Shown one piece after another: positions 57,842 to 61,749 of a stretch of DNA of 64,000 bases. A model generated the notes under the pieces. It was given only the letters and a program-made list of their open reading frames with translations. It was not told where the DNA came from and did not search any database. The DNA is from a virus. The stretch lies in IMG/VR virus record IMGVR_UViG_3300044695_004134, positions 1 through 64,000 of that record, one strand, 5' to 3'. Position 1 is the first letter of the stretch. Each line of letters begins with the position of its first letter. Made by a program: the position numbers and the translations under genes.

Positions 57842-58717
57842 TTATTCTTCGGCTAGCTTAGAGAAATAAGCCAAATCATCATCATCTTCGGCAATACCGG
57901 CATCCGCCATCACTGGCTTACGTGGCATTGCTTTAGCTTGTTCAACTGTAGTCTTAGCAACTACTGGTGAACCATCAAGGCCGAGAACCTTGTCTAGACG
58001 AGCCTTCAACTCATCATAAGACTTAAAGTTTTCTGGCAACAGAAACTCTTTGAGTGAGTATTCTTTCTTCCAGATAGCTTCTAGCTTTGCATCGTCATTC
58101 AACAATGCAGATGGTGACTCAAATTCAGACTTATCATAGTTCTGATAACCCTCAACTTTACGAATCTTGAGTTTGAAGTTTGCACCTTCCCACATATCAA
58201 ATGGGTTGAGTGGCTTCTCATCTTCGAAAGCAGGATTCATTGCTTCGTTAATCTTATCAAAGATTTTCTTACCAAACTTATAAAGAAACACTTTACCTTG
58301 ATTCTGAGGATTCTTAGAATCTTCAACAACGTAGATGTTTGCAATGTAAGACAGACGGCGCTTTTGTTTACGTGCAACTTCCTTGTTTGCTTCGATGCCA
58401 GAGTTCCACAACTGAGAGTTGTATTCAGAAACTGGATCTTTTTGATTCAAGGTTGTAAGAGAGTTTTCAATGTACCAGCCACCAGGACCCTGGAAACCGT
58501 GATTGAATACTTTTACCCACGGGAGTGCATCATCACCATCAACCGATGGCTGAGGCAAGAAACGAATAACTGCATAACCATTGCCGACTTTATCGACTTC
58601 TGGTTTCCAGAAATTGTCATCTTTGGTGGGAGTTTCGGCTGAATTGAGTTTTTCAATAGCCTTGGCGAGTTTGTCTAGGTTACTAGAACTGCTCTTGAGA
58701 TTTGCGAATGAAGACAT
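57842..58717 (-). CDS. gp32: Single-stranded DNA-binding protein
   Basis: GNGYAVIRFLP, HGFQGPGGWYIENS, KFGKKIFDKI, GANFKLKI, acidic tail. Confidence 0.96.
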   Translation of the reverse strand: MSSFANLKSSSSNLDKLAKAIEKLNSAETPTKDDNFWKPEVDKVGNGYAVIRFLPQPSVDGDDALPWVKVFNHGFQGPGGWYIENSLTTLNQKDPVSEYNSQLWNSGIEANKEVARKQKRRLSYIANIYVVEDSKNPQNQGKVFLYKFGKKIFDKINEAMNPAFEDEKPLNPFDMWEGANFKLKIRKVEGYQNYDKSEFESPSALLNDDAKLEAIWKKEYSLKEFLLPENFKSYDELKARLDKVLGLDGSPVVAKTTVEQAKAMPRKPVMADAGIAEDDDDLAYFSKLAEE

Positions 58718-58798
58718 ATTATTTTCCTTGTATAACGTTGTATTAAATGTATGTTGTTTTATCCACAGAATTCATAATGTATGAAGTATATAGGTAAA

Positions 58799-59281
58799 TC
58801 AAACGTACATCTTGAGAATTGCGATGGTAGATTTGGCATCTCTGTGATGAATACCAATACCACCGGCTTTGTTCCAATCATCGATAACAGATTTAGTGTC
58901 ATCAATGATTATGGAATTTGGTGTAGCATACTTGTACTTGTGTCTTTTACCCGGCACAAAGTTTTGTGTATATGCAATATTGTGTGTGTCTAACCACGTA
59001 GCTTTCTGTGGTGCAATCATAGCATGAAATTCTTCACGTGCAGTTGAGGACAGAATCTCTTTTGGAGTACCTAGCGTGTCCAAAAAGTTGAGCAATTCAC
59101 GTGCATCATCCATGAGATCCAATTTGGCGAAACAGTCTTCATGAATGAAGGTTTCAAAAAGACCATAGAATTCTTTTCGGTCACGTGTGTCCTCTGGATA
59201 TAGTTTGAATCGTGCTTTGTATGCTTTGTTGAAGTCGGCAATTACGCCATCCATATCAACATAAATTTTATCGATTGTCAT
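58799..59281 (-). CDS. HAD-family 5'(3')-deoxyribonucleotidase-like protein
   Basis: DMDGVIADF motif I and IIDD motif IV. Confidence 0.82.
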   Translation of the reverse strand: MTIDKIYVDMDGVIADFNKAYKARFKLYPEDTRDRKEFYGLFETFIHEDCFAKLDLMDDARELLNFLDTLGTPKEILSSTAREEFHAMIAPQKATWLDTHNIAYTQNFVPGKRHKYKYATPNSIIIDDTKSVIDDWNKAGGIGIHHRDAKSTIAILKMYV

Positions 59282-59889
59282 ACTGTTTTCATGATATTTA
59301 AGTTTTTCTTTAAGACTGTGAGCATCTTGGGTTTGTCAAAGTTTAGAAATGGTTTGTACTTCTCACAACTCTTTACGAATTCTGGAAAGATAATGTCATC
59401 TTCAATTTTTTTCACCCACATCGGCAAAAAGTTTAACAACTCATTTAAGATAATTAAAGTCTCTTTAGTGGTGTTTCCTTGCATATAAAGATTATACAAC
59501 AAGGGGTACTGCCCGTCAACCACTTTCAGTAATTCTTCCGGATTGTTTACCGAATCAAATAGTCTGTGGAGGTCCTGTTCAAACACATAGGAAAGGGACT
59601 GTTGAGTTTTTTGCCACACCTTGTACTCAGATTCGGCATCCTCAGACAGGAGATCACCCACCCATATCTTCGGATTCACTAGCATATTGGAGACAAAGAA
59701 ACCAAAGAGTTCATCCCGCTTGTATTTTCTGGATAGTTTGTAAAATTGAAACTTATCCTTACGGAGCATGAATTGTTCTTTGGTTACATTTGTCTTACCA
59801 GAATACTTCACATAATCATATTTTGAAGTGAAATGCAGTTTCAATGCATGAAACATTGCATACGCTTCAAACCCACCGGCTTCATTCAT
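59278..59889 (-). CDS. gp59: Helicase loader
   Basis: LKLHFTSKYDYVKYSGK, RKDKFQF, ETLIIL, KYKPF. Confidence 0.9.
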   Translation of the reverse strand: MNEAGGFEAYAMFHALKLHFTSKYDYVKYSGKTNVTKEQFMLRKDKFQFYKLSRKYKRDELFGFFVSNMLVNPKIWVGDLLSEDAESEYKVWQKTQQSLSYVFEQDLHRLFDSVNNPEELLKVVDGQYPLLYNLYMQGNTTKETLIILNELLNFLPMWVKKIEDDIIFPEFVKSCEKYKPFLNFDKPKMLTVLKKNLNIMKTV

Positions 59890-60107
59890 ATGAACAACTT
59901 ATTCACTTTCTTAATCATATTTGCGGCTTGTGCTTCATCAGAAATTTTAGATTTCAGCGGTGTAGTAAGGAGTGTTGCCGCAATCTCTACTTCAAATCCG
60001 GTCTCCTGGCAATGAAGAAGTACCGCATCCATATAGCCAATTCTCTTAACCTTTACGATTTCTTCGATGATGGCCGAGAAATTACGTTGCTCCTCTTTCG
60101 TTGGCAT
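59886..60107 (-). CDS. gp33: Late transcription co-activator
   Basis: YMDAVLLHC...LKSKISDEA; upstream of gp59. Confidence 0.85.
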   Translation of the reverse strand: MPTKEEQRNFSAIIEEIVKVKRIGYMDAVLLHCQETGFEVEIAATLLTTPLKSKISDEAQAANMIKKVNKLFI

Positions 60108-60322
60108 TATTTTTTACCCATCGAATATGCAATGCAAACCGCATTTGTGTTTGTTTCATACGCACACTTCACCGAGATCGGATCAATTCCTTTTTGAATA
60201 GCCGATTCAATGTTCTTTGCCATGTTGTTTCGATCATTGATATTGTAAATTGTAAAAGCGGCAATAGAAGAACATATCGCTACTGTGATACAAATGATTA
60301 CTGTGATAACTTCTTTATTCAT
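60107..60322 (-). CDS. Small membrane-anchored hypothetical protein
   Basis: Start MNKEV after AAAGGAG; one N-terminal hydrophobic helix and two distal Cys. Confidence 0.65.
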   Translation of the reverse strand: MNKEVITVIICITVAICSSIAAFTIYNINDRNNMAKNIESAIQKGIDPISVKCAYETNTNAVCIAYSMGKK

Positions 60323-60323
60323 C

Positions 60324-60878
60324 TTAGATGACTCCTTTGTTTCTGTCAATTTTGTCTTTGTTGCTTCTGTAAAAGATGTGTCTTCCAATTTGCTCTATCC
60401 TTTTTAAATTCCATTGAGGATTCACGTAGTCTGCATGGTAATATGTTGCACCATTTGTAACGTCTTCATAACGCTCAAAATTCACAACCATATTGACAGC
60501 TAACTGTTGAATCTCATTATACAATGAAGTGCTTCTAATTGTCAAGCGATTATTGGTATGTTTTCTTTCACAATACCAAGAGAACTGACAAACACTACCG
60601 GTTTTTTGATAAACTACTCCGCAAATGTCATCAGCATAGTTGCCAGACATGACTCTATTGAAGGTGACAAAAGCAACAGCTTTCTTACCTTTGAGAGGTT
60701 CATTTGCGGCTTCAAAATAGATATTATCAGCTAGGCAAGTTATTTGTTTCTGTGTCTCCTTATCTAAGGAATGGAAACTTGCCTTGAATGGTAAATTATA
60801 TAAATTTATATTTACCATCGACAGTGATATAATGACTGCGGAAAATATCATGCTTAAAAGTATTGGTTTACTTTTCAT
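60324..60878 (-). CDS. Cell wall hydrolase, SleB/Hydrolase_2 family
   Basis: CLADNIYFEA, ICGVVYQ, QFSW, GATYYHADYVNPQW, IGRHIFY; N-terminal hydrophobic anchor. Confidence 0.9.
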   Translation of the reverse strand: MKSKPILLSMIFSAVIISLSMVNINLYNLPFKASFHSLDKETQKQITCLADNIYFEAANEPLKGKKAVAFVTFNRVMSGNYADDICGVVYQKTGSVCQFSWYCERKHTNNRLTIRSTSLYNEIQQLAVNMVVNFERYEDVTNGATYYHADYVNPQWNLKRIEQIGRHIFYRSNKDKIDRNKGVI

Positions 60879-60954: not shown

Positions 60955-61419
60955 ATGAAAATTAACACATCTTTTTATGTTTACGCATATCTCCGAGACA
61001 ACGGAACTCCATATTACATAGGTAAAGGTTCTGGAAAAAGGATATACAGTAAACACAACATAAAATTACCAAAAGACGTATCTAAAATAATATTCGTAGA
61101 GAAGAATTTGACAGAAATTGGAGCTTTTGCCATCGAACGTAGTTTAATACGTTGGTATGGAAGAAAGGATAACAATACTGGCATATTAAGAAATCTAACG
61201 AACGGCGGAGAAGGTGGTTCAGGTGCAATACGAACTTCGGAACACCGAAAACTTATTAGTAATGCTATGCTTGGAAATTCCAGAGCAAAGGGTCATAAAA
61301 GACCAGGAACGAAACCTGAACTAAACAAACATAAAATTTATATGAGTTGTTTACATTGCAATAAACAATTTAACATTGGTAATTTTACCAAACATATAAA
61401 TTCACTAAAAGCCGGATGA
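60955..61419 (+). CDS. Free-standing GIY-YIG homing endonuclease
   Basis: FYVYAYLR...YYIGKG, WYGRKD...LRNLTNGGEG, C-terminal CLHC...H; paralog of 43003..43665. Start uncertain (60901, 60937 or 60955). Confidence 0.8.
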   Translation: MKINTSFYVYAYLRDNGTPYYIGKGSGKRIYSKHNIKLPKDVSKIIFVEKNLTEIGAFAIERSLIRWYGRKDNNTGILRNLTNGGEGGSGAIRTSEHRKLISNAMLGNSRAKGHKRPGTKPELNKHKIYMSCLHCNKQFNIGNFTKHINSLKAG

Positions 61420-61441
61420 TTGGATAATAAGGACATCCGGC
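61407..61441 (-). terminator. 3' hairpin/terminator of the tmRNA transcript
   Basis: GCCGGATG...CATCCGGC stem followed by TTTT on the minus strand. Confidence 0.6.
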
Positions 61442-61714
61442 AAAACCTCAGCTTAGCCTCAAGCGGCTAGGCGATATTCACTGTCGTTTGCAGTTACTTT
61501 GATTTAGTTTTTACACCTACTCTGGTGAGTTGTCCACTTCTGTACTTGTTGCCCTGTCGAATAGCTGAGTACACCCCCATCAAAAGCACTTCCCGATTTA
61601 CATTCCCCCGAATACATCATTTCTGGTTCGGCTAATACGCAAATGCTTTTGGTGGAGGTGGGGGGATTTGCACCCCCGTCCAGAACACTTTTCTAGTTGC
61701 TTCATACAACCATA
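61411..61714 (-). ncRNA. ssrA: Circularly permuted (two-piece) tmRNA
   Basis: Acceptor piece ending GGGGG-TGCAAAT-CCCCC-CACCTCC-ACCA (3' end 61650) precedes the coding piece starting GGGGGTG (61578). The 7-bp acceptor stem has G3:U. Tag ANDSEYRLAA* at 61491-61459. Outer ends approximate. Confidence 0.92.
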
Positions 61715-61720
61715 GCCCCT

Positions 61721-61749
61721 ATTATAGAGGTTTTTTATTTAGGTGTCAA
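61721..61749 (-). promoter_or_regulatory. Consensus sigma70 promoter for tmRNA
   Basis: TTGACA (61749-61744), 17 nt spacer, TATAAT (61726-61721). Confidence 0.9.

What the first reader, a model, noticed from the sequence alone, without database searches (positions are those of the whole stretch)
61411..61749. Phage-encoded circularly permuted two-piece tmRNA with a perfect host-type promoter
Seen: on the minus strand a TTGACA-17-TATAAT promoter is followed first by the tmRNA 3' part (T-arm, CACCTCC-ACCA). Next comes a 71-nt spacer whose ends pair (AAAAGCATTT/AAGTGCTTTT), then the 5' part (GGGGGTG...ATTCGAC), the resume context TAACT-GCA and the tag ANDSEYRLAA*. The acceptor stem carries the G3:U alanine determinant and the T-loop is non-canonical (UGCAAAU). 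Established: permuted tmRNAs occur in Alphaproteobacteria, some Betaproteobacteria and marine picocyanobacteria, and C-terminal LAA is a ClpXP degron. Inference: the phage supplies its own compact ribosome-rescue RNA early in infection, perhaps against host anti-translation defences, and it hints at a proteobacterial host.
Basis: partly seen in the sequence, partly recalled or inferred. Interest (0 to 1): 0.82.

Follow-up and report, generated by a model that had tools for sequence, protein, structure and literature searches.

The report
Two-piece tmRNA gene in lake phage
A 166-kb T4-like lake-water phage carries an intact gene for the ribosome-rescue RNA (tmRNA) in the swapped-order "two-piece" form. 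The call is correct, but the kind is already published for phages, and this copy is one member of a large, long-resident phage gene family.

Summary
ARAGORN calls a permuted tmRNA with tag ANDSEYRLAA*. Rfam beta_tmRNA scores 104.1 bits (cut-off 84) and tmRNA_permuted 106.6 (cut-off 47). The alpha and cyano models fall below their cut-offs.

The record is a 99%-complete T4-like virus from lake water, with no SmpB, ArfB, integrase or psbA. The perfect TTGACA-17-TATAAT promoter is real. It is one of 7 perfect and 38 near-perfect sites, 34 of them on the same strand, so it belongs to the phage's own early-promoter class.

More than 140 IMG/VR contigs carry homologues. Most sit in the same slot (ssrA, hydrolase, gp33, gp59, gp32). 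They show strong covariation: 23 of 40 consensus pairs have compensatory changes. Their tags are intact (AND...LAA).

The "odd" UGC T-loop is half of a compensated tertiary pair. G55 goes with loss of the D-loop GG in 27 of 29 distinct sequences; U55 goes with GG in 56 of 56.

The phage genes lie outside the two sampled bacterial beta-type clades. The same type occurs in Stenotrophomonas phages, and sister phage copies score as alpha-type. The subtype is therefore a weak guide to the host.

Phage two-piece tmRNAs are published (Buchholz 2022), and this scan has noted them in at least 715 genomes. Verdict: real, probably functional, a new member of a known kind.

The parts
61721..61749 (-). Sigma70-type promoter: -35 TTGACA (61749-61744), 17-nt gap, -10 TATAAT (61726-61721). 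The predicted start is near 61713.
   Evidence: sequence; 12/12 match; one of 7 perfect sites in the genome, all on the minus strand, against 0.1 expected. The start site is inferred.
61650..61713 (-). Acceptor piece, about 64 nt. It holds the 5' strands of the inter-piece helices P2a (61711-61707) and P2b (61687-61681), the T arm (stem 61677-61673 / 61665-61661, loop UGCAAAU 61672-61666), the acceptor 3' strand (61660-61654) and an encoded ACCA (61653-61650).
   Evidence: Rfam alignments. Covariation in P2a, P2b and the T stem. The 5' end is inferred from the promoter; the 3' end is inferred from the CCA.
61579..61649 (-). Intervening spacer of 71 nt, presumably removed on maturation. It is a three-tier hairpin whose closing stem, plus CA/UG and A/U pairs, extends the acceptor stem. 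It contains no conserved ORF.
   Evidence: Fold of -34.5 kcal/mol, z=-2.6. The closing stem covaries in 54 phage genes. The inner hairpin CCGAA/UUCGG changes to CUGAA/UUCAG and to CCGCA/UGCGG in relatives. The spacer occurs only once in the genome.
61407..61578 (-). Coding piece, about 172 nt. It holds the acceptor 5' strand GGGGGUG (61578-61572, with G3.U), the D-loop analogue UACUCAGCUA (61571-61562), UUCGAC (61561-61556), the P2b 3' strand (61556-61550), the P2a 3' strand (61532-61528), a hairpin at the PK1 position (61527-61514), the tag ORF and the 3' hairpin.
   Evidence: The 5' end is inferred as the RNase P site before G61578.
61459..61491 (-). Tag reading frame: resume codon GCA, then ANDSEYRLAA, then stop TGA. 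U and A stand at positions -5 and -4 before the resume codon.
   Evidence: ARAGORN. Homologous tags of the form AND...(L/M/V)AA occur in 127 viral genes.
61407..61441 (-). 3' hairpin GCCGGAUG / CAUCCGGC with a 15-nt loop UCCUUAUUAUCCAAU, followed by UUUU. It is a family-typical helix and probably doubles as the terminator.
   Evidence: It aligns to the conserved-loop helix of RF01850. Related loops CCUUAUUAYCCAA and CCUCGUAACAGAAU occur across the phage family. The terminator role is inferred; the simple scan did not call it because the loop exceeds 8 nt.
57842..60878 (-). Conserved downstream neighbourhood: cell-wall hydrolase (60324-60878), gp33 late-transcription coactivator (59886-60107), gp59 helicase loader (59278-59889), a 5'-3' deoxyribonucleotidase-family gene (PHROG 2643; called dNMPase in the text; 58799-59281) and gp32 (57842-58717).
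   Evidence: PHROGs and Pfam PF07486 and PF16805. The synteny is shared by 91, 76 and 57 of 117 viral loci for the hydrolase, gp59 and gp32, and by phage Melnitz.

Best explanation
This is a functional phage ssrA gene of the circularly permuted, beta-type design. It is a long-term resident of a clade of T4-like (Kyanoviridae-like) lake phages.

Proposed mechanism; every step below is inferred from sequence:
1. Host RNA polymerase transcribes a precursor of about 300 nt from a phage early promoter.
2. The precursor folds so that the acceptor stem continues into the spacer's closing stem.
3. Host RNase P cuts before G61578. Host nucleases trim to the encoded CCA at 61650. The 71-nt spacer hairpin is lost.
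4. The acceptor piece (about 64 nt) and the coding piece (about 172 nt) stay joined by the acceptor stem and helices P2a and P2b.
5. Host AlaRS charges the RNA through G3.U70. Host SmpB and EF-Tu deliver it to stalled ribosomes, since the phage has no SmpB.
6. Translation resumes at GCA. It adds (A)ANDSEYRLAA, a ClpXP/SspB-type degron.

The likely benefit is to keep ribosomes free while the phage degrades host mRNA, or while host nucleases cut mRNAs or tRNAs.
For: Shown by tools:
- Identity: ARAGORN calls a permuted gene. RF01850 scores 104.1 bits against a cut-off of 84, and RF04321 scores 106.6 against 47. The alpha model gives 34.8 and the cyano model 27, both below cut-off.
- Phage origin: a 166-kb virus record, 99% complete by CheckV. 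gp32, gp59 and gp33 flank the gene. There are 30 tRNA genes.
- Selection on structure: 54 diverse phage homologues give 40 consensus pairs, 23 with compensatory changes. This copy keeps 38 of 40, against a family mean of 38.3.
- Tertiary covariation: U55 goes with a D-loop GG in 56 of 56 sequences and G55 with no GG in 27 of 29 (p=4e-20). Each state needs about 10 changes on the tree.
- Tags: 127 viral tags are all in frame and of the AND...(L/M/V)AA type.
- Synteny: the slot is conserved in most homologous loci.
- Promoter: it belongs to the phage's early-promoter class.
- Population stability: the exact sequence, spacer included, recurs with 0 differences in independent lake metagenomes.

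From my own knowledge: G3.U70 is the AlaRS identity element. AANDxxY binds SspB and C-terminal LAA is recognised by ClpX.
Against: - There are no RNA data. Processing, charging and tagging are all inferred.
- The phage has no SmpB, so it depends on a host factor from an unknown host.
- This copy sits on a long branch. Its D-loop analogue of 10 nt is unique among 85 distinct sequences. It has a plain hairpin where many relatives have a larger pseudoknot-like insert. It scores lower than several relatives, 104 bits against up to 156.
- The viral comparison set was collected with a pattern that fixed ACCA, GGGGGTG and TTCGACAGGG. Invariance at those positions is therefore not evidence.
Confidence: 0.85

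Rival explanations
1. Recent capture of the host's own ssrA. On this view the gene was taken lately from a betaproteobacterial host, so its subtype names the host lineage.
For: - The beta model is the only subtype model above its cut-off.
- A low-GC bacterial subtype (L171, L177, L178; genomes of 1.7-2.3 Mb) shares the ACCA-AAAG...CUUUUGAU-GGGG junction and an encoded CCA.
- The habitat is lake water.
Against: - In the tree the bacterial genes form two supported clades (0.99 each). The phage genes form a separate deep radiation. The nearest bacterial gene lies at patristic distance 1.66, against 0.39 for the nearest phage gene.
- The phage gene scores 104 bits; sampled bacterial genes with a full-length match score 160-331.
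- The slot is syntenic in phages whose backbones are only 65-77% identical.
- The same type occurs in Stenotrophomonas phages.
- Phage genes with the same tRNA-like domain score as alpha-type.
Confidence: 0.08
2. A hijacking or decoy RNA rather than a rescue helper. It would titrate host SmpB, or replace the host tag so that tagged proteins meet a different fate. A precedent is the tRNA-like-domain-only tmRNA of mycobacteriophage DS6A.
For: - The phage brings no SmpB of its own.
- A DS6A-like molecule is reported to inhibit tmRNA (PMC4131195).
- The tag differs from the commoner ...ALAA by an Arg (RLAA).
Against: - The full tag frame, with resume context, stop codon and LAA end, is conserved across the family. 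A pure decoy would not need it.
- The tag keeps the positions that bind SspB and ClpX in E. coli (my own knowledge).
Confidence: 0.05
3. A non-functional remnant: a decaying pseudogene, an attP-type ssrA fragment of a temperate element, or bacterial DNA mis-assembled into a viral contig.
For: ssrA is a common integration site, and prophages often carry fragments of it (PMC9004378 text).
Against: - The gene is complete, with a promoter and a 3' hairpin.
- It keeps 38 of 40 consensus pairs.
- The phage has no integrase.
- The flanks are T4-like on both sides.
- The same arrangement occurs in more than 100 viral contigs and in independent metagenomes.
Confidence: 0.02

Closest known systems
Bacterial beta-type two-piece tmRNA (Rfam RF01850; Sharkady & Williams 2004, as cited in PMC9004378)
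   Same: - The same permuted order, and a promoter placed directly before the acceptor piece.
- P2 helices, a GGGGGUG/CACCUCC acceptor stem with G3.U, and a spacer whose ends pair.
- A 3' hairpin with a CCUUnUUAnCCAA-like loop and an AND...LAA tag.
   Different: - It scores far lower: 104 bits, against 160-331 for sampled bacterial genes with a full-length match.
- The spacer is 71 nt, against 24-42 nt.
- CCA is encoded, whereas 9 of 12 bacterial genes have ACCU or ACCC.
- The elbow carries G55 with A18.
- No terminal GC-rich hairpin follows the 3' hairpin.
- It lies outside both sampled bacterial clades.
ssrA of OM43 phage Melnitz and the pelagimyophages (Buchholz et al. 2022, PMC9004378)
   Same: - A T4-like (Kyanoviridae) phage with the same slot: ssrA, gp33, gp59, gp32.
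- A sigma70-type promoter and an encoded ACCA.
- A stem-closed spacer with a UGAU-GGGG junction, and a non-canonical T-loop.
   Different: - Melnitz scores as alpha-type (106.7 bits; beta only 25).
- Its spacer is 142 nt.
- A glutamine riboswitch follows its gene, and none is found here.
- It is marine rather than from lake water.
tmRNA of the Stenotrophomonas phages of genus Menderavirus (Marzo, Moby, Mendera, IME-SM1)
   Same: - It is also permuted and beta-type by Rfam (94.6 bits).
- BLAST identity is 79% over the acceptor piece.
- These phages are listed as 'Permuted' in Table S1 of PMC9004378.
   Different: - It belongs to an unrelated phage group.
- It lies inside a tRNA cluster.
- Its acceptor strand is GGGGAUG, its T-loop is the canonical UUCGAUU, and its tag is VAANDDSYTVRIAA.
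One-piece phage tmRNAs (mycobacteriophage Bxz1 group, Bacillus phage G) and the tRNA-like-domain-only RNA of DS6A (PMC4131195)
   Same: A phage-borne ssrA without a phage SmpB, presumed to support or manipulate trans-translation.
   Different: They have the standard gene order or lack a tag, and their hosts are Gram-positive.

Membership tests
tmRNA (ssrA) | A tRNA-like domain: a 7-bp acceptor stem, a T arm and a 3' CCA | tested here: met
   The T stem covaries in the family.
tmRNA (ssrA) | The alanine identity pair G3.U70 and discriminator A | tested here: met
   GGGGGUG pairs with CACCUCC, followed by A61653.
tmRNA (ssrA) | An internal tag frame that starts at an Ala resume codon and ends in a hydrophobic degron plus a stop codon | tested here: met
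   GCA...TGA at 61491-61459 reads ANDSEYRLAA*. The frame is conserved in 127 relatives.
tmRNA (ssrA) | A covariance-model score above the curated cut-off | tested here: met
   RF01850 scores 104.1 against 84. RF04321 scores 106.6 against 47.
tmRNA (ssrA) | Alanylation, SmpB binding and tagging of stalled peptides | not testable with these tools
   These need biochemistry or genetics. No RNA run was listed.
Circularly permuted (two-piece) tmRNA | The 3' (acceptor/T-arm) part is encoded upstream of the 5' (coding) part, with an intervening segment between them | tested here: met
   ARAGORN flags the gene tmRNA*. The order is shown.
Circularly permuted (two-piece) tmRNA | The precursor is cleaved into two RNAs held together by base pairing | not testable with these tools
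   The inter-piece helices P2a and P2b and the spacer stem covary. No RNA ends are available, because laid only DNA contigs.
Beta-type permuted tmRNA (RF01850) | It matches the beta model better than the alpha and cyano models and exceeds the cut-off | tested here: met
   104.1 bits against 34.8 and 27.
Beta-type permuted tmRNA (RF01850) | It groups with betaproteobacterial genes in a phylogeny | tested here: not met
   The 12 bacterial genes in the tree form their own clades and the phage genes lie outside them. The bacterial sample is small and the tree is short, so this result is indicative only.
Phage-encoded gene | It lies in a complete viral genome between phage genes | tested here: met
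   CheckV gives 99%. T4-like genes flank it. The phage has no integrase.

The most novel reading that the evidence does not exclude
The permuted tmRNAs of T4-like aquatic phages may be a self-standing phage lineage rather than repeated host captures. They are kept in one genomic slot. They appear to be built from exchangeable modules: the tRNA-like domain, the stem-closed spacer and the mRNA-like domain. The spacer would be a selected structured RNA or cargo slot. The A18.G55 elbow variant would be an adaptive alternative, for example one that escapes a host T-loop-directed enzyme. If so, Rfam's alpha and beta subtypes of phage tmRNAs say little about hosts. Host-switch arguments based on those subtypes would then need revisiting.
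Probability: 0.3. Interest if true: 0.55.

Novelty: new member of a known kind. Interest (0 to 1): 0.3.

Why it matters
As a single gene it is ordinary. Phage-borne two-piece tmRNAs are published, and this scan has noted them many times.

Its value is as a well-documented example from lake water. It shows three things:
- These genes are under structural selection, including a compensated tertiary pair.
- They are inherited in a fixed slot of T4-like phages.
- Their Rfam subtype should not be used by itself to infer the host or a host switch.

The family's tRNA-like core is 20-180 times deeper than this phage's flanks in lake metagenomes. Phage-supplied trans-translation may therefore be a common feature of lake viral infections.

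Tried and rejected
- Expression evidence: no RNA holder was listed. The four runs laid were DNA contigs only, so they say nothing about RNA ends or processing.
largely repeated, because both centres lie in the same family.
- UGC T-loop in bacteria: one scan of 185,579 species' genomes for the UGC T-loop with this acceptor stem gave 16 hits and no beta-type gene. The hits were Elusimicrobia, a few MAG contigs, and the native alpha-type gene of Rhodobacter capsulatus. The T-loop is therefore not disqualifying, but it gave no lead to the host.
- Other phage genes looked for in this genome and not found: SmpB, ArfB/RF-1 domain, tyrosine integrase and psbA.
- A nested gene in the spacer: rejected. 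The spacer is 71 nt. The only ATG-started frame runs into the mature RNA, has no Shine-Dalgarno sequence, and is not conserved in spacer relatives.
- A second copy of the spacer in the genome: none found.
- One superfamily joining the Melnitz gene and this gene: unresolved. The Melnitz coding piece scores 49.9 bits on the lake-phage profile and 22.2 on the bacterial-beta profile, while Rfam puts it firmly in the alpha type.
- BLAST of the Melnitz ssrA against cultured phages found only the Melnitz strains.
- The original paper on the beta lineage (PMC516066) is not held.
- No claim in this report rests on the unpublished genome G425, which gave only a sub-threshold match.

Full report
**What is there**

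On the minus strand of 61749-61407 lies a complete, circularly permuted tmRNA gene. Read from the sequence, it runs in this order:
- A perfect sigma70-type promoter: TTGACA at 61749-61744, a 17-nt gap, TATAAT at 61726-61721.
- An acceptor piece with a T arm (GGGGG-UGCAAAU-CCCCC), the acceptor 3' strand CACCUCC and an encoded ACCA that ends at 61650.
- A 71-nt spacer (61649-61579).
- The acceptor 5' strand GGGGGUG (61578-61572), which gives G3.U70, followed by a D-loop analogue and UUCGAC.
- Two helices that tie the pieces together, and a small hairpin at the position where tmRNAs have pseudoknot 1.
- The resume codon GCA at 61491 and the frame ANDSEYRLAA-TGA, which ends at 61459.
- A hairpin with a conserved loop, followed by UUUU (61441-61407).

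ARAGORN calls a permuted tmRNA with this tag. Rfam gives beta_tmRNA 104.1 bits (cut-off 84, E=1e-30) and tmRNA_permuted 106.6 bits (cut-off 47). Scored separately, the alpha model reaches 34.8 bits (cut-off 50) and the cyano model 27 bits (cut-off 70).

**Is it really in a phage?**

Yes.
- The window is part of a 166,193-bp virus record that CheckV rates 99% complete.
- The flanks are T4-like. Two 2OG-Fe(II) oxygenase genes lie upstream. Downstream lie a cell-wall hydrolase, the gp33 late-transcription coactivator, gp59, a deoxyribonucleotidase-family gene (called dNMPase below) and gp32.
- gp32 is about 60% identical to those of marine cyanomyophages.
- The genome has 30 tRNA genes. It has no psbA, integrase, SmpB or ArfB-type factor.
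- The stretch is held by lake-water metagenomes from about 22 studies.

**The promoter**

It is real but not special to this gene.
- The genome has 7 perfect TTGACA-N16-18-TATAAT sites, all on the minus strand, where shuffles give 0.1.
- It has 38 sites with at most one mismatch, 34 of them on the minus strand.

This is the pattern of T4-type early promoters read by unmodified host polymerase. Early transcription of the tmRNA is a reasonable inference. The label "host-type" is not needed.

**A large phage family**

It found 24 more with shorter spacers.
- ARAGORN finds 127 permuted tmRNAs in these contigs. All have in-frame tags of the type AND...(L/M/V)AA.
- Of 17 diverse loci scored with Rfam, all pass tmRNA_permuted. 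Twelve score best as beta-type (86-156 bits). Four score best as alpha-type (L011, L106, L119, L064). L016 passed no subtype model. L106 is followed by a glutamine riboswitch.
- Caveat: the pattern fixed ACCA, GGGGGTG and TTCGACAGGG. Invariance at those positions is therefore not evidence.

**Selection on structure**

- In an alignment of 54 sequences chosen to be under 88% identical, RNAalifold recovers 40 pairs. Of these, 23 show compensatory double changes.
- The covarying pairs include the inter-piece helices P2a (61711-61707 / 61532-61528) and P2b (61687-61681 / 61556-61550), and the T stem.
- They also include the 11-bp closing stem of the spacer. With CA/UG and A/U pairs, that stem extends the acceptor stem into one long precursor helix. 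In this phage the fold is -34.5 kcal/mol with z=-2.6.
- The window's copy keeps 38 of the 40 pairs, against a family mean of 38.3. It departs from only four well-conserved columns, one of which is TAA to TGA at the stop codon.

**The odd T-loop**

- UGC... T-loops (G at position 55) occur in 47 of 123 phage copies.
- Among 85 distinct sequences, U55 always goes with a GG in the D-loop analogue (56 of 56). G55 goes with AG and no GG in 27 of 29 (Fisher p=4e-20).
- Each state needs about 10 changes on the tree, and the two switch together, across several spacer families.
- I read this as a compensated tertiary pair, G18.Psi55 replaced by A18.G55. It argues for a working tRNA-like elbow.
- The same T-loop occurs in the native alpha-type tmRNA of Rhodobacter capsulatus.
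- Caveat: in a permuted gene the T-loop and D-loop flank the spacer, so linkage contributes to the association.

**Origin and host**

- They were rare in an even sample of the order (3 of 121). They were frequent in one high-GC family (12 of 31). They were found in 3 of 41 sampled genomes of a second family; those three have small, low-GC genomes.
- In a spacer-stripped tree the bacterial genes form two clades with 0.99 support each. The phage genes form a separate, deep radiation. This gene sits on a long branch beside L030.
- Bacterial spacers are 24-42 nt, and 9 of the 12 bacterial genes do not encode the final A of CCA.
- Of 117 viral loci, 91 carry the downstream hydrolase, 76 carry gp59 and 57 carry gp32. 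Only 2 have a tRNA gene within 500 nt. Their backbones are only 65-77% identical to this phage.
- The cultured Stenotrophomonas phages (Menderavirus) carry a beta-type permuted tmRNA as well (94.6 bits). Their host genus lies outside the groups reported to have two-piece tmRNA (PMC9004378).

Together this favours long residence and spread among phages over a recent capture. It also makes the subtype a weak pointer to the host. The tag, read with the charged alanine as AANDSEYRLAA, resembles the E. coli tag at the positions known to bind SspB and ClpX (my own knowledge). That loosely fits a beta- or gammaproteobacterial host.

**Relation to the closest published case**

Phage Melnitz (MZ577097) has its ssrA in the same slot: ssrA, gp33, gp59, thyX, gp32. 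It shares several architectural details. It scores as alpha-type, however (106.7 bits; beta 25). Its paper already reports that 53 of 133 unique phage tmRNAs are two-piece. Its Table S1 lists permuted genes in phages of Stenotrophomonas, Bordetella, Citrobacter, Synechococcus, Caulobacter and Pelagibacter. The 2025 tmRNA database counts 79 phage sequences. This scan itself holds 851 notes on such genes in at least 715 genomes. The kind is therefore known.

**Side observations on the spacer**

- Spacers fall into discrete families that are shared by genes whose mature parts differ. This spacer is 97% identical to L057's and 94% to L068's, while the mature parts are 61-69% identical.
- Across all pairs, 25 of the 228 with at least 85% spacer identity have mature parts under 70% identical.
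- Within its family the spacer keeps a three-tier hairpin with compensatory changes, and it has no conserved ORF.
- In four lake metagenomes the tRNA-like core is 20-180 times deeper than the flanks. Contigs diverge exactly at the spacer edges. The exact window sequence recurs with no differences.
- This agrees with earlier scan notes that call the spacer a swappable slot. Here the slot is small and holds no gene.

**Verdict**

This is a genuine, probably functional, phage-encoded beta-type two-piece tmRNA. Its mechanism is inferred by homology and depends on host SmpB, AlaRS and RNase P. Processing, charging and tagging remain untested. It is a new member of a known kind and of modest interest.

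Noticed in passing
window 61579-61649; L057, L068, L048, L055, L098 and other loci of alignment A1: The excised spacer falls into discrete, well-conserved sequence families. These are shared between tmRNA genes whose mature parts are only 61-69% identical, in phages whose backbones are 65-77% identical. That suggests modular exchange, or independent selection on the spacer. The family this spacer belongs to keeps a three-tier hairpin with compensatory changes.
   Followed up: partly
window 61672-61666 (T-loop) and 61571-61562 (D-loop analogue); 85 distinct viral sequences: There is tertiary covariation in the tRNA-like elbow. U55 goes with a D-loop GG in 56 of 56 sequences. G55 goes with AG and no GG in 27 of 29. 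Each state needs about 10 changes on the tree. I read this as G18.Psi55 replaced by A18.G55.
   Followed up: yes
L195/L196 (Melnitz MZ577097 45984-50500); L106:966-1340; L011, L119, L064: The slot ssrA, gp33, gp59, gp32 of T4-like aquatic phages holds a beta-type gene here and an alpha-type gene in Melnitz. Some IMG/VR genes with the same tRNA-like domain as this one score as alpha-type, and L106 has the glutamine riboswitch directly downstream, as Melnitz does. The Rfam subtype of a phage tmRNA is therefore a poor host marker.
   Followed up: partly
whole phage genome (G000), e.g. 60545-60516, 87323-87296, 94092-94065, 96645-96617, 141215-141188, 147105-147077: The genome has seven perfect sigma70 consensus promoters, all on the minus strand, against 0.1 expected. 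It has 38 sites with at most one mismatch, 34 on the minus strand. This is a T4-style early-promoter set. The site at 60545-60516 lies inside the hydrolase ORF.
   Followed up: partly
L171, L177, L178 (genomes G460, G534, G535; 1.7-2.3 Mb; locus GC 0.36-0.44): There is a distinct low-GC bacterial subtype of beta-type permuted tmRNA. Its 5' strand reads AAGCUGUAUAUCUG..., it encodes CCA, and it has the ACCA-AAAG...CUUUUGAU-GGGG junction. It occurs in only 3 of 41 sampled genomes of a large family. The organisms could not be named with these tools.
   Followed up: partly
L133 (IMGVR_UViG_3300043411_002386, 13.8 kb): This is the only 'viral' contig whose tmRNA groups with the bacterial genes, next to the low-GC bacterial clade. 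It may be a host fragment or a prophage junction at ssrA rather than a phage gene.
   Followed up: no
window 61646-61688 and 61480-61546 in lake metagenome runs X4, X5, X6, X9: The conserved tmRNA cores reach summed contig depths of 100-1100, while this phage's flanks stand at 4-10. Many contigs branch off at the spacer edges. Relatives of this gene are collectively far more abundant in these lakes than this phage is.
   Followed up: partly
L160/L163 (Rhodobacter capsulatus chromosome): The native alpha-type two-piece tmRNA of R. capsulatus (216.9 bits, the only tmRNA hit in that genome) carries the same GGGGG-UGCnAnU-CCCCC T arm and CACCUCC acceptor strand as this phage gene.
   Followed up: partly
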